A stretch of DNA of 64,000 bases from Bradyrhizobium sp. (lineage in GTDB: Bacteria; Pseudomonadota; Alphaproteobacteria; Rhizobiales; Xanthobacteraceae), in the NCBI RefSeq assembly GCF_036009065.1, contig NZ_DASYMN010000102.1, positions 3,202 to 67,201 of the forward strand, written 5' to 3'. Within the stretch, counting starts at the first letter, position 1. Every line of letters begins with the position of its first letter. Below are positions 6,613 through 15,036 of this stretch, piece by piece. The position numbers and the translations under genes are program-made. Below the pieces are notes generated by a model, which saw only the letters and a program-made list of their open reading frames with translations, did no database searches and was not told the DNA's origin.

Positions 6613-7089
<477 letters not shown>

Positions 7090-7092
7090 TGG

Positions 7093-8061
7093 CTACTCCG
7101 CCGCCCGCGAATGCGTGCCGGAACTGACATGGGTACGGTCGAGATCGCGCGACAACAGCCGCCCGGCGGCGCCGGAGGCCCGGCTCACCAGTTCGAGATA
7201 GGTTTTGGTCACCCGCGCAAAGTGATTGTAGATGATGACGGCCGGGATCGCCGCGACCAGGCCGATCGCGGTGGCCAGCAGCGCCTCGGCGATGCCCGGC
7301 GCCACCACCGCGAGGTTGGTGGTCTGCGCCTTCGAAATCCCGATAAAGCTGTTCATGATGCCCCAAACCGTGCCGAACAGCCCGACGAAGGGCGAGGTCG
7401 CGCCGATGGTGGCGAGCAATCCCATCCCCAAGCGAATCCGCCGCGCCTCGGCGCGCATGATCTCGGCAAAACTCGACGCCGCGCGTTCCTTGATGCCGGT
7501 GTCGGACGAAATTCCCGCCGACAGCCGCGCCTCGCGCATTGCGGCAGCAAGAAACGATGACAGCACGCCCCGCTTGGCGCCGAGCGCGAATTGCGCCTCG
7601 GCCAGCGAACGGGAGTCGCTGATCTTGCCGAGCGCGGTCCTGAGCTTGCGCCGCGCCACCGCAAGCTCGATCATTTTGGCGATGAAGATCGTCCAGGTCA
7701 GCAGCGATGCGAAGGCAAGACCGATCATCACCGCCTTGACCAGGATGTCCGCCGACAGGAACATCGACCACGGCGACAATTCGCGCAGCGCTGCCGCCTC
7801 GGCTTTCAGCGGTCTGCTGCCGCTGTTGGTGAGAGATGCTGCGGATTCGCTCGCCGAAGGTGCCGGCGCCGGCTGAGCGACCGCGGGAGCTGGCTCCTGC
7901 GCCGCCGGCGCGGCGGGCGCCTGAATGGCGGGTTGGGTGACCGCGGGCATTTGCGCTGCCGGCGCGGGCGCCGTCCGCTGCGCAACCGATGGCGGCGCGA
8001 GCGACAGCATTGCAAGCGCGAGAATCACACCACAGGTCGCTCGAAAAACTGACACATTCAT
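7093..8061 (-). CDS. exbB: ExbB proton channel with Pro/Ala-rich N-terminal extension
   Basis: LATIGATSPFVGLFGTVWGIM and VAPGIAEALLATA motifs. Confidence 0.95.
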   Translation of the reverse strand: MNVSVFRATCGVILALAMLSLAPPSVAQRTAPAPAAQMPAVTQPAIQAPAAPAAQEPAPAVAQPAPAPSASESAASLTNSGSRPLKAEAAALRELSPWSMFLSADILVKAVMIGLAFASLLTWTIFIAKMIELAVARRKLRTALGKISDSRSLAEAQFALGAKRGVLSSFLAAAMREARLSAGISSDTGIKERAASSFAEIMRAEARRIRLGMGLLATIGATSPFVGLFGTVWGIMNSFIGISKAQTTNLAVVAPGIAEALLATAIGLVAAIPAVIIYNHFARVTKTYLELVSRASGAAGRLLSRDLDRTHVSSGTHSRAAE

Positions 8062-8496
8062 GCTTCGGCCCAGGTGCGGGATAGGTTATGATAGATACCG
8101 GTCAATTTGACCGTTTCAGGGTCATCTCGCCCAGGCCGCTCTACAACCGGCTCTTCGATGTCGACATCGAAGAGAACGCTGCGGGCGTGAGCATTCGATA
8201 CCATGCTCTGCACCCTGAAAAAAGCCGCAACACGTAACCCTCGCGTGAACACCTGCAAACCGGAACCTGGACCAGGTATGAGATGACGCGCCGGCGATTT
8301 GGTTCCTTAAGACCTAAATACCCCGCAACCCGGTCGGCACCAACTGCATTGCTCCGCGGCCTTTCTAGAACTCCTAAAATCTGGCGATCGCCGAAAGCCG
8401 CACGGGTCAGCGGCTGGCCGGGCACCATGCTGTTGTCGCCGCCCGGCCGCCGCCCGATAGCTCTTGTCGAGTTCGTGGAAATCGTAATGATCCTCG

Positions 8497-10860
8497 CTAG
8501 AAATTGGCTGTTGCGGACAGGCGAAACACGCGCGGCGACCCGGGGGTGATATTGTTGTTGCCGTCCGCGGTCGCAATGTAGCGGCGATCGAAGACGTTCT
8601 CGATGTTCAATTGTGCGCGCCACATCGCGTTGAAGCGATAATAGACGGCCGCGTCGACGCGGGTGAACTCCGGCAAGATGACCGTATCATCCGATGAAGC
8701 GAAGAAATTGGTGTAATGAATGACGCCGACGCCGGCTCCCCAGGCCGGGTTGAACTGATATCTGTTCCACAGCGCGAAGGTGTTGAAAGGCACCAGCCCG
8801 ACACGGTTGCCCGCGACGATCGTCGGCGAGGTGCTGCCGACGATCCGCGCATCGGTATAGGCATAGCCGCCCGTGATCTGCCAGGCATCCGTGACATACC
8901 CGGTCAGCGACGCCTCGAAGCCGCGCGTTCTTGTTGCGCCGCTCAGGATAAAGAAGCCGGCGTTGTTGGGGTCCGGAAGGCGCTGATTGGTGCGGTTCAG
9001 CTCGTACACGGCGGCGGCAAATTGAAGCCGGGGGAAGATGTCATATTTCAGTCCGACTTCCTTGTTCGCAAACTTTTCCGGCTCGGCAAGGACCAGGCCC
9101 GGAGAAAGCGCGCTGAACTGGTCGCCGGCGCTCGGCAGGTAGGAGACGCTGTAGCTGGTGTAGACGGCGAGATTTTCCATCGGTTTCAGCACCACGCCGG
9201 CGCGCGGGGAAACCAAATTGTCATCGCGGCCGAGGCTGATGCCGGTTCGGCGGTCGCGCGACTCCAGCCCAAAATGATCGAAGCGGACGCCGCCGATCAA
9301 CTGCAGGTACCGGGTAATTTCTATCTGGTCCTGCACATAGACGGCGCCCAGATCGAGTTTGTAAGTGTTGTTGGCGCCGGTCGCGATGTTGCGGAAGCTC
9401 ACCGGCACCAAGGACACCGGATTTCGCGGGTCGACCGTGATGGTGTTTGTCAAATTGTTGAAGAATCCGTCTTGCCGGAAATTCAAGCCATTCTGCCGTC
9501 CGACCTCGCCGCCGAACACGACGGTATGACGAATCGGGCCGGTGCCGAACCTGTAGGTAAGATCGGTCTGGTTGAACAGATTCTGCCGGTCGGTTTCGTT
9601 GTTGTACGCGGTCAGGTTGCTCGAAGTGCCCGCGACATTGACGGCGCCTGCATCGGCGCCGCCGCCGGGAAAGATGTTCTGGTAGAACTTGTCGTATCTG
9701 GCAAACTGGGACGCGTTCCTGATCGTCAGTCCGTTCTCGAAATCGTGCTCGACCACGGCATTTGCTATGTCGACGTCGGCAAGCGCGTAGTTGAGATCCG
9801 GATTGCCGAAGAACGTCGACGGCGACGTATTGTAAGGCATACGGGGGGAAACCCCGCCCGGCAGAATCTGCGAAGGAATGCCGCGGTCGGTGACCCGGCG
9901 GTCGTGCAGGTGCTCGTAGCTCAGTTTGACCACCGTGGTGTCGTTCGGTGCGAAGGTCGCGGTGGGATTGATTGCCCAGCGTTCCAGATTGACGAAATCC
10001 CGGTAGCTTTGGGTGTTCTCGTACATGGCGTTGAGCCGGAATGCCCAGTTCTCGTTGACCGCCTGACCGACGTCCGTCGTGACGCGGCCGCCGGGATAGG
10101 AGTTGCGGCCGACCGTTACCTCGCGAATGGTGGTGCCGTCGGCTTCCTTGAGCACGCGATTCACCACGCCGCCGCCACCGCCCCGACCGAAGATCAGCGC
10201 GTTCGGCCCCTTCAGGACTTCAAGGCGCTGCAGATTATAGAAGTCGCGGAAATACTGAACGTCGTCGCGAATCCCGTTGGTGTAGAAGTCGGCGTTGCTG
10301 CGTTGACCGCGGATGACCAGGTCGTCGCGGTTCGATTCGCCTTGATGGTAGATCACGCCGGGGACGTAGCGGACGGCCTCGCCGATCGACGTGAAGGCCT
10401 GGTCCTTGATGAATTCCTTGGTCAGCACCGAAACCGACGCCGGTATGTTGAGCAGCGCGGTGTTGGTCTTGGTTGCGCTCGACGTGCTCCCGGTGACGTA
10501 GCCGGTCTGTCCTGTCCGGGCGTCCTGCGGATTGACGCTGGGTTGCCGCGGCGCCTGCACCTGCTGCTGCACGGCAGGTCGCGTGGTCCGCGCCGCCCTC
10601 CGCGCACTGACTGGACGATGCTGCCGGGCGCGGCGCACACGCGGAGCGTCCGGAGCACCTACATACACCGGCGGCAGCGATGAGACTCGGGGCTTGGCGT
10701 CTTGCGCGGCCGTCGGCGTCACGCCGAGCGCTGCTGCGACTCCGAAGGCGACGATGCTTGTGGAGACGGATAGCGTCGCCCGCGAACACGCCGCCAAAAC
10801 CTTGCCGGAATAGCCGGCGGCAACCGGCCGCGACGACCTCGTTATTTTTGCTGTGCTCAT
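8497..10860 (-). CDS. TonB-dependent siderophore receptor
   Basis: Plug motifs (SATKT, IRG, EVLKGPNAL.FG), beta-barrel-like pattern, C-terminal aromatic residue (LSATANF). Confidence 0.93.
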   Translation of the reverse strand: MSTAKITRSSRPVAAGYSGKVLAACSRATLSVSTSIVAFGVAAALGVTPTAAQDAKPRVSSLPPVYVGAPDAPRVRRARQHRPVSARRAARTTRPAVQQQVQAPRQPSVNPQDARTGQTGYVTGSTSSATKTNTALLNIPASVSVLTKEFIKDQAFTSIGEAVRYVPGVIYHQGESNRDDLVIRGQRSNADFYTNGIRDDVQYFRDFYNLQRLEVLKGPNALIFGRGGGGGVVNRVLKEADGTTIREVTVGRNSYPGGRVTTDVGQAVNENWAFRLNAMYENTQSYRDFVNLERWAINPTATFAPNDTTVVKLSYEHLHDRRVTDRGIPSQILPGGVSPRMPYNTSPSTFFGNPDLNYALADVDIANAVVEHDFENGLTIRNASQFARYDKFYQNIFPGGGADAGAVNVAGTSSNLTAYNNETDRQNLFNQTDLTYRFGTGPIRHTVVFGGEVGRQNGLNFRQDGFFNNLTNTITVDPRNPVSLVPVSFRNIATGANNTYKLDLGAVYVQDQIEITRYLQLIGGVRFDHFGLESRDRRTGISLGRDDNLVSPRAGVVLKPMENLAVYTSYSVSYLPSAGDQFSALSPGLVLAEPEKFANKEVGLKYDIFPRLQFAAAVYELNRTNQRLPDPNNAGFFILSGATRTRGFEASLTGYVTDAWQITGGYAYTDARIVGSTSPTIVAGNRVGLVPFNTFALWNRYQFNPAWGAGVGVIHYTNFFASSDDTVILPEFTRVDAAVYYRFNAMWRAQLNIENVFDRRYIATADGNNNITPGSPRVFRLSATANF

Positions 10861-11316: not shown

Positions 11317-12489
11317 TCAATCGCCGGCTTGCACTTCGCTCACCACATTGGCTGCAGGAATCGAGGCGCTCCAGTTCAGCCCTTCCGCTGCAAACTCCAT
11401 GGCGACCCTGGCGCCCAGCGAGCGCTCGACCATTTCGCCGATGACGACGTGGCCGAAACCTTTGCGCTGGGGTGGCGTGACCTGCGGCCCGCCCTGCTCG
11501 ACCCAGTTCAACAATAGCGGTCCCGCCGCGCCGGCATCGCCGTCGAACGTCCAGGATACGCTTACCTTGCCTGCCGGCACCGATAGCGCCCCGTATTTGA
11601 TGGCGTTGGTCGCCAGCTCATGAATCGCAAGGCCGAGCGCTTGGGCTGCCTCCGCCGTAACCACAATTTCGGGCCCCGCAAGTTCAATGCGCGAACCTTT
11701 AATCTCGGCAAACGCAACCAGTTGCTGGCGCACCAGCTCTGCGAGCGGCGCGCCCTGCCAGTTCTTGGCTACCAGTACGTCGTGCGACGCGGCGAGGCCC
11801 TGCAGCCGCCGTTCGAAACGGCGTTCGAACTCTTCCATGGAGCCTGCGGTGCGCGCGGTGCGGCGGGCGATCGACTGAATCACCATCAACAGGTTTTTCG
11901 AGCGATGCGATATTTCGTGCATCAGGAACTGGATGTGGTCCTCGGCCGCCTTGCGGTCGGTGACATCGGTCACGATGCTCACCATGCGCTGCGCTTTGCC
12001 GTCGGGCCCACGCGCGATCACCTGGCCGCGCCCGCGCAACCAGAGCACGGTGCCGTCTGGGTGAACCGTGCGGTATTCGGACGTAAACGTATCTTGCTTG
12101 TCTGCCAATTGGTGGAACGTGTGCATCAGGTGACGGTCCTCGGGATGCAGCGCTCGTTGATACTCGTCGTTCTCGCCGCCCACCTGACCGCGGCCATCGG
12201 GCAGTGAAATTCCAAACAGCGCCATGCCCTCTTCGGTCCAGAGCCGCGTCCGGTTGACCAGGTCGGTTTCCCAGGTGCCCATCCGGCCAGCCGCCAATGC
12301 CGTGCGGTACCGCGCCTCGCTTTCGCGCAGACTCCGGTTGGCTTCGGACAATTCCGCGGTCTTGCGTTCCAGCGCCTCCTTCGACTCCAGCAGGTCCCGG
12401 TCGGCGCGCTGCCGCGCCAGCAGAATGCTCTGGGCGTTCTGCAGCGCCACCGAACGAAGCAGCTTTTCCTCGTCGTCGTCCGATGGCAT
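11317..12489 (-). CDS. HWE-family sensor histidine kinase with one PAS/PAC domain
   Basis: HEISHRSKNL H-box, IHELATNAIKYGALS N-box, WVEQGGP; ATG overlaps the stop of the upstream gene. Confidence 0.9.
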   Translation of the reverse strand: MPSDDDEEKLLRSVALQNAQSILLARQRADRDLLESKEALERKTAELSEANRSLRESEARYRTALAAGRMGTWETDLVNRTRLWTEEGMALFGISLPDGRGQVGGENDEYQRALHPEDRHLMHTFHQLADKQDTFTSEYRTVHPDGTVLWLRGRGQVIARGPDGKAQRMVSIVTDVTDRKAAEDHIQFLMHEISHRSKNLLMVIQSIARRTARTAGSMEEFERRFERRLQGLAASHDVLVAKNWQGAPLAELVRQQLVAFAEIKGSRIELAGPEIVVTAEAAQALGLAIHELATNAIKYGALSVPAGKVSVSWTFDGDAGAAGPLLLNWVEQGGPQVTPPQRKGFGHVVIGEMVERSLGARVAMEFAAEGLNWSASIPAANVVSEVQAGD

Positions 12490-13553
12490 CAGCGGCCCGC
12501 AATCCTGTCCGCAGCAAGCTGCGTTCCAAGCACGCGCGAGCGGATTTTCGCGAACGCGGTGTCGCGGCTGGTGGAGGTGTCGTCGCTGAACGGCGAGAAG
12601 CCGCAATCGTCCGTGGTGCCCAGTTGCTCGACTGGAATGTACTCCGCGGCCTGCAAGATCCGGCCGCAGACCTGTTCGGCGGTCTCGAGTTGCGGGTCGA
12701 TCGGCGCGACCACGCCGACGAATATTCGTTGATCTGATTTCATGTGCTTGCGGATGATCTTCAGAACCCCCGGACGATCCGGCTCGCCCGCCAGCGCAAT
12801 ATAAAAATTTTTGGCGCGCAGTTCGAACAGGCTCGGCAGCAACTCGGCATAGTTGACATCGCTGCTATGGGTAGAGTCGCGGTCGCCGCCGGGGCAAGTA
12901 TGAATACCGATGCGCCGGCGTTCTTCGGCGGAAAACCGCGACAGCGCCAGGTTGTTCAGATCGATAAAACTGTTGAGCAGGTGTCCGGTGGGATCGAGCT
13001 TGATCGCCAGGCGTGCTTCGGTGAAATCGATCTGAACCTTGTGCGCGCCCTTGGATAGGCAGGCGCGCACCTCGGTCTCGTGCTCGCGCAGCAGATCGTC
13101 GATAAATTCCTCGCGCGTATAGCCGGGGATGCCTTGCGCCGGATACATCAGGCTCAAGGCCGACGGCGAGATCACCGCCTGCTTGACCGGGACATGGGCG
13201 TAACGCTGGGCCACGTCGAGGAAGCGGTCGGCCGATACCTTGTAGCGAAACGGCCCCGAGGTCAGGCGCGGCATATGGCGCGTATGACCCGCGGCGAAGG
13301 GAATCCTAAAACCGTCCGGTGCGGTGTTGCCTAGACCGTCCACGCAGTAGGTCCAGAAATTGTGATATTTGCGCTGCTCGCCGTCGGTGATAACGGGCGA
13401 GCCCGTGGCCTCGAACCGCGCGATGGTGTCGGCAATGGCGTCCTCGTAGAGCGGGTCTAGCCCAGGGTCGGTATGGTTTCCCGCCGCTGCAATCGCCTCG
13501 ATCAGGCGCGGCGGCCGCGGAATACTGCCGATCGGTTCGGTAGGAATGCTCAT
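12489..13553 (-). CDS. Cobalamin-independent methionine synthase catalytic-domain (MetE C-terminal / 'core') family protein
   Basis: PIGSIPRP start, ITDGEQ, zinc ligands GIHTC and TDDCGF; no N-terminal folate-binding half. Confidence 0.82.
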   Translation of the reverse strand: MSIPTEPIGSIPRPPRLIEAIAAAGNHTDPGLDPLYEDAIADTIARFEATGSPVITDGEQRKYHNFWTYCVDGLGNTAPDGFRIPFAAGHTRHMPRLTSGPFRYKVSADRFLDVAQRYAHVPVKQAVISPSALSLMYPAQGIPGYTREEFIDDLLREHETEVRACLSKGAHKVQIDFTEARLAIKLDPTGHLLNSFIDLNNLALSRFSAEERRRIGIHTCPGGDRDSTHSSDVNYAELLPSLFELRAKNFYIALAGEPDRPGVLKIIRKHMKSDQRIFVGVVAPIDPQLETAEQVCGRILQAAEYIPVEQLGTTDDCGFSPFSDDTSTSRDTAFAKIRSRVLGTQLAADRIAGR

Positions 13554-13699
13554 CAGCCCCCCTGCTGGCGCGGACAATGCGATGCCGACCGCAACCCAGC
13601 CTTTTTTAGATTACACCGATTAAGTCAAGATAAGCAGGAAATTTCAGAGTTACCGCGTCGCAGCAGGTTGCGGCGATGAGGCGCGAAAAGCCACGCGAC

Positions 13700-14925
13700 T
13701 TACCAGACCCGCCTCACCATCGCAGGCGTCAGATCCTTGAGCGATGGCGCACCGACCTGCGCCATCGTCGCGCGCATCTCGGCGCGCAGGATGGTGAGCA
13801 CGCGCTCGACGCCGGGCTGGCCGAAGGCGCCCAGTCCCCACAGATGAGGCCGGCCGATGCATACCGCCCTGGCGCCGATCGCCAGCGCCTGACGATGTCG
13901 CTGCCGCGTCGAAAACCGCTGTCGACCAGAACCGGCATGCGGCCGGCGGCCGCAACGATATCCGGCAGCACGTCGATGGTGGCGCCGACGCCGTCCCCAC
14001 CCGACCGCCGTGGTTGGAAACGATGATGGCGTCGATCCCCGCCTCCGTTGCGAGCCTTGTATCCTCATGTGTGAGAATGCCCTTGAGCACGATTTTTGTC
14101 TTCACCGTGTCGCGCAAGCGCTTGATCGACTCCCAGGTGATGTTGGTGACGGCGGTGCCGCCGACGCCGCCGAGCGCGATGCCGGCAAAATTCGGCTTGC
14201 GGCTGAGATAATCGTTGCCGCCATGGCAGCTTCCGCAGTCCCGCGTATCGGTGCGCCGCAGCCGGGTAAAGGTCTCCCACTTCGCTGAGGATCGCACATC
14301 CAGCGTCACCACGATCACCGGCGCGCCCGCGCGCTCGGCACGCCTGGCGAGCGCCTCGCCGATCTCCCAGCGCTGCGTCGTATAAAGCTGAAACCACACC
14401 GGCGCGCCGCGCGCGGCAATCGCATCCTCGATCGATGTGGTCGCCACCGTGGAAAGAATTTGCAAATGGTTGCCGGTCCTCGCCGCCTTGGCGACGGCGA
14501 CCTCCGCATCGGGATGAAAGGCGCGGTTGCTGCCCGTCGGTGCAATCACGATCGGACTGTCGTAGCTGATGCCGAGGATGTCGGCGCTGGTGTCGATCTT
14601 GCTGACATCGGTGAGTCGCCGCGGTCGCAACTCGAATCTCGAAAACCCTGGCGGTTGGCGCGCAACGTCAGTTCATCGTCGACGCCGGTGGCCATGTAGC
14701 CGAAATGCGCCGGCGGAACGTTCTTCTTCATGACCGGCTCGAAGTCGAAGACGTCGAGCGCCTGGGCGGGATCGGCGATCAGCTTGTCGAGTTCGCGCGG
14801 CGCCCAGTCCACCGGATCCTCCGGCCGCTGCCCCTGCGCCAGTGCGCCGTGCGCGATCAGCGGACTCGCCGCCAAAAATTGCAGCAGCGGCGCCGGCTGG
14901 CGATCTGAAGGTTTGGCCGCGACAT
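13700..14925 (-). pseudogene. FMN-dependent alpha-hydroxy-acid oxidase/dehydrogenase with four single-base frameshifts
   Basis: Family motifs spread over frames: SRRR(L)LQFLAASPL, YMATGVDDELT, APTG, LKGILT, SNHGGR, DSGFRRGSD, GRPHLWGL; shifts near 14888, 14640, 14000, 13890. Confidence 0.85.
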
Positions 14926-15036
14926 CGTGAACCTCAGCAATGCGAGGAGAGCGCGTTGCCGAGCCTGCCACACACCGACGCCGGTACAAACCGGTATTTG
15001 ACTGCAGCAGCGCGCGCGAACTTCGCGCAAGACCGT

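What the first reader, a model, noticed from the sequence alone, without database searches (positions are those of the whole stretch)
11317..13553. MetE-like protein translationally coupled to a sensor-less HWE kinase: possible thiol/methyl-sensing signalling pair
Seen: the MetE-like TGA overlaps the kinase ATG (TGATG at 12487-12491). The kinase starts with a ~55-aa helix (EEKLLRSVALQNAQSILLARQRADRDL...) directly before PAS/PAC, with no membrane or input domain and no response regulator nearby. The MetE-like protein keeps Zn ligands (HTC, DDCGF) but lacks the folate-binding half. I recall this LLRSVALQNA helix on diverse kinases next to such MetE-like genes (unverified). Inference: the enzyme-fold protein acts as a ligand-binding sensory subunit docking on this helix, perhaps feeding the PhyR/EcfG stress pathway used by HWE kinases.
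Basis: partly seen in the sequence, partly recalled or inferred. Interest (0 to 1): 0.66.

Follow-up and report, generated by a model that had tools for sequence, protein, structure and literature searches.

The report
MetE-like enzyme paired with helix-tagged kinase
A very strongly conserved zinc enzyme of the methionine-synthase fold is almost always encoded directly in front of a sensor kinase that begins with one particular 45-residue helix, across at least eight bacterial phyla. This points to an undescribed enzyme-based input to two-component signalling.

Summary
On the minus strand, a 354-aa single-barrel MetE-like gene (12489-13553) ends in TGATG, which overlaps the ATG of a soluble 390-aa kinase (11317-12489). 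The kinase is built as a 64-residue helix, then PAS, HWE and ATPase domains.

- In 80 genomes found through the enzyme, 78 have a gene starting with DDEE-LLRSVALQNAQSILLARQRAE at the enzyme's stop codon. One has it inverted nearby and one keeps a remnant.
- Of 80 metagenome loci found through the helix alone, 76 have enough upstream sequence to judge. 75 of these have the enzyme upstream and one keeps its last ~22 codons.
- The helix occurs once per genome, including this one, and in only 753 of 1.84 billion representative proteins.

The partner kinases share nothing but this helix. They include HisKA, HisKA_3 and HWE cores, with or without PAS, GAF or REC domains, and one has no sensor domain at all.

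The genome also has MetH and three better MetE-like paralogues. Most likely the enzyme-fold protein is a separate cytoplasmic sensory subunit that docks on the helix tag. Docking, direction of control and ligand are all inferred. The proposed PhyR/EcfG link is not supported, because HWE cores occur only in the four alphaproteobacterial members. I found no literature on this pairing.

The parts
12489..13553 (-). Gene for the MetE-like single-barrel zinc enzyme (354 aa), paired subfamily
   Evidence: ORF and translation. Meth_synt_2 at 22.9 bits. Closest solved relatives are 1YPX (E 5e-14) and 3RPD; true MetE reaches only E 2e-3. It is 76-89% identical to homologues in 8 phyla.
12487..12491 (-). 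TGATG junction: the enzyme's stop codon and the kinase's start codon share one base (translational coupling)
   Evidence: Sequence. The same 1-nt overlap occurs in 49 of 78 related loci and a 4-nt overlap in 8 more.
11317..12489 (-). Gene for the soluble helix-tagged PAS-HWE histidine kinase (390 aa)
12391..12477 (-). Conserved tag motif, kinase residues 5-33 (DDEEKLLRSVALQNAQSILLARQRADRDL)
   Evidence: R26 is invariant. E7, L11, R12, S13, V14, A15, N18, A19, A25, R28, A29 and E30 are at least 90% conserved in 68 kinases. The motif is unique in this genome (E 1.5e-23; next best 0.73). Codon position 3 shows 0.44 pairwise identity against 0.81 and 0.89 at positions 1 and 2.
12289..12480 (-). 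Whole N-terminal helix, kinase residues 4-67, running into the PAS domain
   Evidence: AlphaFold2 model, helix H4-67, block-mean pLDDT 90-97 over residues 11-70.
11965..12282 (-). PAS domain, kinase residues about 70-175
   Evidence: Pfam PAS_3 and TIGR00229; model.
11668..11916 (-). HWE_HK phospho-acceptor (DHp) domain, kinase residues 192-274
   Evidence: Pfam PF07536, 88.7 bits.
11335..11664 (-). ATP-binding (GHKL) domain, kinase residues about 276-385
   Evidence: HATPase_c_2 match below the cut-off; PRK13559 and LOV-HK-like match over residues 167-381; model.
12894..12902 (-). H218-T-C220 zinc-ligand motif of the enzyme, followed by the invariant loop GGDRDSTHS (residues 222-230)
   Evidence: Invariant in 80 homologues. 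Aligns with the HxC motif of 1YPX and of T. maritima MetE. The loop has pLDDT below 50 in the model.
12603..12605 (-). C317, within TTDDCGFSPF: the third conserved zinc ligand
   Evidence: Invariant. Aligns with the CGF/CGL cysteine of 1YPX, 3RPD and T. maritima MetE.
13341..13373 (-). Residues R61-V71 (RKYHNFWTYCV), a loop specific to the kinase-paired subfamily and the proposed docking or ligand-specificity site
   Evidence: 6 of the 22 positions that separate paired from orphan enzymes lie here, and 10 of 22 lie within residues 57-109. Residues 63-66 have pLDDT below 50. The docking role is inference only.

Best explanation
The two genes form an obligate, co-translated two-protein signalling module. 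The MetE-like protein is a single (beta-alpha)8 barrel. It keeps the zinc-thiolate site and the amino-acid-binding motifs of methionine synthases but has no folate-binding half. It is proposed to act as a separate cytoplasmic sensory subunit. It binds the conserved tag of about 45 residues at the tip of the kinase's long N-terminal helix. When a small ligand binds or reacts at the zinc site (a homocysteine-like thiol, an alkyl donor, or zinc or redox state), that change passes down the helix to the kinase core and alters autophosphorylation.

Shown here: near-universal two-way gene linkage, translational coupling, one tag per enzyme per genome, portability of the tag between unrelated kinase cores, selection on the peptide rather than the RNA, and redundancy with other methionine synthases.

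Inferred: physical docking, the direction of information flow (enzyme to kinase), and the nature of the ligand.
For: (1) Enzyme to helix. In 80 species genomes found through the enzyme, spanning 8 phyla, 78 have a helix-tagged gene starting within -10 to +30 nt of the enzyme's stop. 49 of these have the identical TGATG overlap. L047 has it convergent and adjacent. L064 keeps only the first tag codons, MADEERLLAS....

(2) Helix to enzyme. Of 80 metagenome loci found through the helix pattern alone, 72 have the enzyme immediately upstream, 3 have fragmented upstream matches, and 4 have too little upstream sequence to judge. The single exception, L138, still carries the enzyme's last ~22 codons. 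Three further helix-bearing representatives all have a Meth_synt_2 gene ending at the kinase start.

(3) Stoichiometry. The helix profile hits this genome once. It hits 19 of 20 other genomes once. It hits G411 twice, each copy next to its own enzyme gene.

(4) Rarity. Only 753 of 1.84 billion representative proteins match at E<=1e-3, almost always at residue 1.

(5) Portability. Partner kinases share only the tag. Counts are HisKA 55, HisKA_3 10, HWE 4, REC 50 and GAF 20. Lengths run from 169 to over 1300 aa. In L024 the kinase is tag, coiled coil, HisKA_3 and ATPase with no PAS or GAF, so the tag is its only candidate input.

(6) Selection is on the peptide. Ten consecutive residues (LLRSVALQNA) are conserved, not only a heptad face.

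(7) No third gene is conserved nearby. Even within the genus, homology to L001 is limited to window 11336-13619.

(8) A sister subfamily about 62% identical has no kinase neighbour. It differs at 22 otherwise conserved positions, clustered in the 57-109 loop.

(9) The genome has MetH (427 bits) and three stronger Meth_synt_2 paralogues.
Against: There is no direct evidence of contact. AlphaFold2 on a natural in-frame read-through fusion (L080) gave only pLDDT 49-65 for the tag and pTM 0.63. No coordinates or PAE were available. The low tag confidence probably reflects the shallow 14-row alignment over that part, because the same tag scores 95-97 in the kinase-only model. That run is therefore uninformative rather than negative.

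Apparent natural enzyme-kinase fusions proved to be frameshift artefacts of error-prone assemblies, so there is no Rosetta-stone support.

The active-site motifs are fully conserved, and the orphan subfamily is equally conserved. The protein may therefore be a working enzyme, and the kinase could regulate it rather than the reverse.

The 80+80 loci are the best-scoring of more than 500 matches in each scan, so the linkage rate among more distant members was not measured.
Confidence: 0.6

Rival explanations
1. The direction is reversed. The kinase's tag tethers and regulates the enzyme, so the enzyme is an output of the PAS/GAF-sensing kinase rather than its input.
For: The active-site motifs (IGS, DGE, QIDFTE, HTC, CGF) are invariant. 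The orphan sister subfamily, which presumably acts as a free enzyme, shares 163 conserved positions with the paired subfamily. Most partner kinases already carry PAS or GAF sensor domains of their own.
Against: The tag sits at the N-terminal, input end, upstream of the kinase core. One partner kinase (L024) has no other sensor domain. Histidine kinases are not known to control enzymes through N-terminal helices (general knowledge). 50 of 71 partners are hybrid kinases with a receiver domain, which implies a downstream phosphorelay output.
Confidence: 0.15
2. The proteins are functionally linked but do not touch. The enzyme makes or removes a metabolite that the kinase senses through its own domains, and the N-terminal helix is only a dimerisation element.
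For: Enzyme genes and sensor genes in one operon commonly have this logic. AlphaFold gave no confident docking.
Against: The PAS and GAF content varies and can be absent (L024), while the tag is the only constant. A generic dimerisation helix would not be restricted to one kinase per genome, always next to this enzyme. Nor would it conserve ten consecutive residues.
Confidence: 0.12
3. The MetE-like protein is simply a folate-independent 'core' methionine synthase, and its adjacency to a kinase is incidental.
For: Automatic annotations call it a methionine synthase. It has the MetE C-terminal barrel fold.
Against: The linkage is nearly universal in both directions. All NCBIfam methionine-synthase models score far below their cut-offs: 56 against 313, 53 against 576 and 50 against 406. 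No corrinoid-protein or MesX (DUF1852) neighbour is conserved. The genome already has MetH plus three better paralogues.
Confidence: 0.03
4. One reading: in this genome the module feeds the PhyR/NepR/EcfG general stress pathway, because the kinase is of the HWE type.
For: The kinase core is HWE_HK (88.7 bits). It has no receiver domain of its own and no response regulator on its contig, as is typical of HWE kinases that use unlinked partners.
Against: HWE cores occur only in the 4 alphaproteobacterial members of 71. The module is therefore not tied to that pathway. No PhyR link was examined or found here.
Confidence: 0.1

Closest known systems
Regulatory [NiFe] hydrogenase HoxBC with the soluble PAS histidine kinase HoxJ (Ralstonia eutropha), as reviewed in PMC6978683
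   Same: An enzyme-derived, cofactor-containing cytoplasmic protein serves as the sensor and forms a complex with a soluble PAS kinase. The genes for sensor and kinase are linked.
   Different: The fold and chemistry differ completely: a zinc MetE-like barrel against a NiFe hydrogenase. Here the contact is proposed to use a dedicated, portable N-terminal helix tag found on many kinase types. The complex itself is not demonstrated.
H-NOX / HnoK and NosP / NahK stand-alone sensor plus kinase pairs (from general knowledge)
   Same: A small soluble ligand-binding protein is encoded next to a kinase and controls its autophosphorylation in trans.
   Different: Those sensors are haem proteins and their partner kinases have no common N-terminal tag. 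Here the sensor candidate is a 354-aa enzyme-fold protein with a full active site.
Cobalamin-independent methionine synthase MetE and the single-barrel 'core' synthases MesA-MesD and YxjG/YxjH (PMC7857596; PDB 1YPX, 3RPD)
   Same: The C-terminal catalytic barrel fold is shared (Foldseek probability 1.0; TM 0.74 normalised to 3RPD). So are the HxC...C zinc motif and the IGS and DGE motifs. Like the core synthases, it has one barrel and no folate domain.
   Different: Similarity is remote: 22.9 bits to Pfam, and E 2e-3 to T. maritima MetE. The canonical Glu ligand position is Ala. There is an extra invariant loop, GGDRDSTHS. There is no corrinoid or MesX partner. Instead there is a nearly universal kinase partner. 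PMC7857596 does not mention kinases.
Trigger enzymes and co-sensing transporters (DctA/DcuB-DcuS, BceAB-BceS), as reviewed in PMC6978683
   Same: A protein with a catalytic or transport function doubles as the signal input of a regulator.
   Different: Known kinase co-sensors are membrane transporters that contact transmembrane or PAS regions. A soluble MetE-fold partner with a dedicated docking helix has not been described in any paper I could find.

Membership tests
Cobalamin-independent methionine synthase MetE (EC 2.1.1.14) | Two face-to-face barrels of about 750 aa, with an N-terminal Meth_synt_1 folate-binding half | tested here: not met
   354 aa. Only Meth_synt_2 matches, over residues 5-320. 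The model shows a single barrel.
Cobalamin-independent methionine synthase MetE (EC 2.1.1.14) | Pfam Meth_synt_2 catalytic domain above the gathering score | tested here: met
   22.9 bits against a cut-off of 21, so marginal. In the whole-genome scan it scored 20.2 bits, below the cut-off.
Cobalamin-independent methionine synthase MetE (EC 2.1.1.14) | Zinc ligands His-x-Cys, Glu and Cys | tested here: inconclusive
   H218, C220 and C317 are invariant and align with the ligands. The Glu position aligns with A253 or A255. Invariant E257, D224, D226 and H229 are nearby candidates.
Cobalamin-independent methionine synthase MetE (EC 2.1.1.14) | Methyl transfer to homocysteine, and rescue of methionine auxotrophy | not testable with these tools
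   Needs an enzyme assay or complementation. The genome has MetH and three better paralogues.
Core (folate-independent) methionine synthases MesA-D / YxjG-YxjH | Single catalytic barrel of about 340-390 aa | tested here: met
   354 aa. The best solved relatives are 1YPX and 3RPD.
Core (folate-independent) methionine synthases MesA-D / YxjG-YxjH | Match to a curated family model above its cut-off | tested here: not met
   PRK06520 56/313, PRK06233 53/576, PRK04326 50/406, PRK09121 32/392.
Core (folate-independent) methionine synthases MesA-D / YxjG-YxjH | Genomic partner that supplies methyl groups: a corrinoid protein, or MesX/DUF1852 (PMC7857596) | tested here: not met
   No gene family other than the kinase recurs in more than 4 of 80 neighbourhoods.
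HWE histidine kinase | HWE_HK phospho-acceptor domain followed by a GHKL ATPase domain | tested here: met
   PF07536 at 88.7 bits over residues 192-274. HATPase_c_2 scores 23.4, below its cut-off of 27.4, but the fold is modelled.
PhyR/NepR/EcfG general-stress input kinases | Genetic or phosphotransfer link to PhyR or a stress-pathway receiver | not tested
   No receiver domain lies on contig C102. PhyR was not searched for. Only 4 of 71 module kinases are HWE type.
Histidine kinase with a stand-alone cytoplasmic accessory sensor (HoxBC-HoxJ, H-NOX-HnoK type) | Sensor and kinase genes are conserved neighbours in one operon | tested here: met
   78 of 80 loci in one direction and 75 of 76 informative loci in the other, mostly with overlapping stop and start codons.
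Histidine kinase with a stand-alone cytoplasmic accessory sensor (HoxBC-HoxJ, H-NOX-HnoK type) | Physical complex, and ligand-dependent control of autophosphorylation | not testable with these tools
   The single-chain AlphaFold fusion was uninformative and gave no PAE or coordinates. Biochemistry is needed.

The most novel reading that the evidence does not exclude
This is a previously undescribed class of two-component input. A MetE-fold zinc protein serves as a detachable cytoplasmic sensor. It plugs into any histidine-kinase core through a portable N-terminal docking helix of about 45 residues. It reports a thiol, alkylation or zinc-related metabolic state, and the two-gene cassette has spread among soil bacteria of at least eight phyla.
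Probability: 0.55. Interest if true: 0.8.

Novelty: new variant of a known kind. Interest (0 to 1): 0.75.

Why it matters
Most cytoplasmic histidine kinases have unknown signals. This finding links a defined, recognisable tag on the kinase, almost without exception, to a defined partner protein with a recognisable ligand site. It matters for three reasons.

- It turns more than 500 orphan kinases, mainly from Acidobacteriota, Planctomycetota, Verrucomicrobiota and Proteobacteria, into a single testable system.
- It assigns a likely non-metabolic role to a large set of genes now annotated as methionine synthase.
- It offers a natural, modular docking pair that could be moved onto other kinases for synthetic signalling.

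It would also be a second clear case, after HoxBC-HoxJ, of an enzyme fold recruited as a soluble kinase sensor.

Tried and rejected
- **Natural fusions as Rosetta-stone evidence.** L055 and several representatives with an internal tag (P0132, P0153, P0157, P0217 and others) looked like enzyme-kinase fusions. Their enzyme parts are riddled with frameshifts, and L163 reads in three frames. I rejected them as assembly artefacts.

- **AlphaFold docking.** I built a legitimate single-chain target from loci where the two genes are in frame, reading through the stop codon (L080, with 13 paired rows, alignment A5). The tag got low confidence, and no PAE or coordinates were returned. A first alignment that included helix-only fragments was discarded, because MAFFT placed them on the enzyme's C-terminal helix.

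- **RNA element or translational-coupling explanation of the tag's conservation.** Rejected on third-codon-position variability.

- **A third conserved gene (response regulator, Hpt, corrinoid protein).** None found.

- **Anti-phage defence system.** No PADLOC match.

- **Foreign-DNA signal from composition.** GC content of the cassette (0.60-0.64) is similar to its flanks.

- **Promoter and terminator scans.** Nothing above chance.

- **Literature.** Seven full-text searches found no description of the pairing.

Full report
**What is in the window**

Both genes are on the minus strand. The MetE-like ORF runs from 13553 to 12489 and encodes 354 aa. The kinase ORF runs from 12489 to 11317 and encodes 390 aa. 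The reverse complement of 12487-12491 is TGATG, so the stop and start codons share one base.

Pfam finds only a marginal Meth_synt_2 match in the first protein, 22.9 bits against a cut-off of 21. In the second it finds PAS_3, HWE_HK (88.7 bits) and a weak ATPase match. NCBIfam's methionine-synthase models all score far below their cut-offs.

An AlphaFold2 model of the kinase gives one continuous helix over residues 4-67, with block-mean pLDDT 90-97 over residues 11-70. PAS, two DHp helices and the ATPase domain follow. The kinase has no hydrophobic segment. None of the genome's 55 receiver domains is on this contig. The only corrections are that the helix is about 64 residues long and that only three of the four MetE zinc ligands are clearly retained.

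**Is the pairing conserved? From enzyme to helix**

A scan of one genome per species found more than 518 relatives of the enzyme. The best 80 were fetched. They come from Acidobacteriota, Pseudomonadota (alpha, beta and gamma), Planctomycetota, Verrucomicrobiota, Gemmatimonadota, Actinomycetota, Myxococcota and Thermodesulfobacteriota. All are still 76-89% identical to the window protein.

A tblastn search with the first 62 kinase residues found the motif D-D-E-E-x-LLRSVALQNAQSILLARQRAE at the enzyme's stop codon in 78 of the 80 loci.

| Spacing between enzyme stop and kinase start | Loci |
|---|---|
| -1 (TGATG) | 49 |
| -4 | 8 |
| 0 to +9 | 17 |
| other (-10, +18, +30; L055 with no clean stop) | 4 |

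The two exceptions are informative:
- In L047 the tagged kinase lies next to the enzyme gene but on the opposite strand.
- In L064 the enzyme gene is followed by MADEERLLAS... and then a stop. This is a remnant of the tag with the kinase lost.

**From helix to enzyme**

A scan of metagenome contigs used only the peptide pattern [LRQ]LRSVA[LI][QER]NA. It gave 541 confirmed loci, and the best 80 were fetched.
- 72 have the enzyme gene ending at the helix gene's start.
- 3 have fragmented upstream matches.
- 4 have too little upstream sequence to judge.
- 1 (L138) lacks the enzyme gene but still carries its last ~22 codons...AFANIRCRVLGATLAAKVIGGG*, in front of the tag.

Three further tag-bearing proteins were picked from an independent protein search. 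Each has a Meth_synt_2 gene ending at its start codon.

**One tag per enzyme**

A profile of the tag hits this 5.7-Mb genome exactly once, at E 1.5e-23. The next best hit is at E 0.73.

In 20 other carrier genomes of 3.9-10.8 Mb, the tag occurs once in 19. It occurs twice in G411, and each copy sits beside its own enzyme gene.

Among 1.84 billion representative proteins, only 753 match at E<=1e-3. Almost all of the listed matches are at residue 1.

**The tag is the only shared part of the kinases**

Pfam domain counts in 71 partner kinases:

| Domain | Partner kinases with it |
|---|---|
| HATPase_c | 63 |
| HisKA | 55 |
| Response_reg (REC) | 50 |
| GAF | 20 |
| HisKA_3 | 10 |
| HWE_HK | 4 |
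| MEKHLA | 6 |

- PAS content varies among them.
- Lengths run from 169 to over 1300 aa.
- Overall identity to the window kinase is mostly 20-30%.
- The first 48 residues have 67% mean column identity, and R26 is invariant.
- The four HWE members are the window, L001, L002 and L048, all alphaproteobacterial. The tag has therefore been combined with a kinase core typical of that lineage.
- In L024 the kinase is only tag, coiled coil, HisKA_3 and ATPase, with no PAS or GAF domain. There the tag is the only candidate input element.

**Selection acts on the peptide**

Over the 20 core codons in 135 distinct sequences, mean pairwise identity is 0.81 at codon position 1, 0.89 at position 2 and 0.44 at position 3. 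All synonymous codons are in use. An RNA or coupling signal therefore does not explain the conservation.

Ten consecutive residues (LLRSVALQNA) are conserved, not just a heptad stripe. This fits a helix held on more than one face. That reading is inference.

**The cassette is self-contained and patchily distributed**

No other gene family recurs in more than 4 of the 80 neighbourhoods.

The tag was found in only 1 of 401 genomes sampled across the window's class. It was found in 2 of 37 genomes of its genus, the window's genome and the genome that carries L001.

Against L001, nucleotide homology covers only window 11336-13619, which is exactly the two genes. A further block is displaced by about 2.5 kb.

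In a tree of the enzyme, the paired subfamily is one well-supported clade and the phyla are interleaved within it: 19 label changes against a minimum of 7. The backbone is poorly resolved, however. This is consistent with horizontal movement of the pair but does not prove it. GC content is not distinctive.

**What the enzyme-fold protein is**

By sequence, the nearest solved structures are two uncharacterised single-barrel "B12-independent methionine synthase family" proteins: 1YPX at E 5e-14 and 3RPD. True MetE is barely detectable, at E 2e-3. By fold, the model matches 3RPD and then the C-terminal barrels of MetE from several species.

Across 80 homologues, 110 positions are invariant. These include the IGS, DGE and QIDFTE motifs. 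From my own recollection, these correspond to homocysteine-binding elements of MetE. H218-T-C220 and C317 are also invariant.

The canonical Glu ligand aligns with Ala. An invariant loop, GGDRDSTHS, follows the HxC motif. It is absent from T. maritima MetE and is modelled with pLDDT below 50.

Price et al. (PMC7857596) describe four families of folate-independent "core" synthases that depend on corrinoid proteins or MesX. That paper does not mention kinases. No such partner genes are conserved here.

The genome also encodes MetH (427 bits) and three better Meth_synt_2 paralogues.

**A kinase-less sister subfamily**

Two carrier genomes hold an extra, lower-scoring copy of the enzyme with no tag gene nearby. 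A search with one of these copies shows a large subfamily that is itself 77-81% conserved.

It is about 62% identical to the paired subfamily and shares 163 conserved positions, including every active-site motif. It differs at 22 positions that are conserved within each group. Ten of the 22 lie in the 57-109 loop excursion after the DGE strand. Among them are R61, Y63, H64, N65, W67 and R93. Residues 63-66 are low-confidence in the model.

I propose this loop as the docking or specificity site. This is an inference, and it suggests specific mutants to test.

**Mechanism**

The most economical reading is a detachable sensor. The enzyme-fold protein binds the tag at the tip of the kinase's long N-terminal helix. 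Events at its zinc site are then passed down that helix to the DHp and ATPase core.

The closest precedents are the regulatory hydrogenase HoxBC with the PAS kinase HoxJ (PMC6978683) and H-NOX-type sensor and kinase pairs.

- The reverse arrangement, in which the kinase regulates the enzyme, cannot be excluded.
- A contact-free metabolic link also cannot be excluded.
- A contact-free link explains the exclusivity of the tag poorly.
- The PhyR/EcfG idea has no family-wide basis.

**Limits**

- Docking is untested.
- The AlphaFold fusion run was uninformative.
- The apparent natural fusions are artefacts.
- Only the best-scoring loci of each scan were examined.
- Most carriers are metagenome bins.
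I re-derived the linkage independently here and do not count that note as evidence.

Noticed in passing
window 13650-14989 (-): The gene directly upstream, an FMN-dependent alpha-hydroxy-acid (lactate/glycolate) dehydrogenase-like gene, is split over at least three overlapping frames (ORFs 14546-14989, 13650-14630 and 13700-14068). The true C-terminus reads in a different frame from the middle. It is either a pseudogene or an assembly error in this 464-contig genome.
   Followed up: no
L161 5983-7065 and L162 5995-7059: A large kinase-less sister subfamily of the MetE-like enzyme. It is about 62% identical, has SKPSFATYP in place of RKYHNFWTY, and is itself 77-81% conserved across its 120 best-scoring matches. 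It has no characterised member and is annotated everywhere as methionine synthase.
   Followed up: partly
L024 3244-4152: A minimal partner kinase of 303 aa: tag, coiled coil, HisKA_3 and ATPase, with no PAS or GAF domain. It would make a good minimal model for biochemistry.
   Followed up: partly
L138 about 1940-2171; L064 5074-5351: Two decayed modules. L138 keeps only the last ~22 codons of the enzyme in front of an intact tagged kinase. L064 keeps the enzyme and only the first ~10 codons of the tag.
   Followed up: yes
L055 4001-7657; L163 2025-5373; proteins P0132, P0153, P0157, P0217, P0224, P0226, P0250: Long-read metagenome assemblies carry many frameshifts in this locus. These produce called 'fusion' proteins of enzyme and kinase. 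They should not be taken as Rosetta-stone fusions.
   Followed up: yes
L169 1-2501: The gene upstream of a tagged kinase is called as a 1052-aa product with two ABC_tran domains plus Meth_synt_2. It may be a real fusion or another gene-calling or frameshift artefact.
   Followed up: no
window 6613-10860 (-): Downstream of the kinase lie a TonB-dependent receptor (8497-10860) and ExbB/ExbD-like genes (7093-8061, 6613-7089). This region has a lower GC content (about 0.59). It is not conserved next to the module in the congeneric locus L001.
   Followed up: partly
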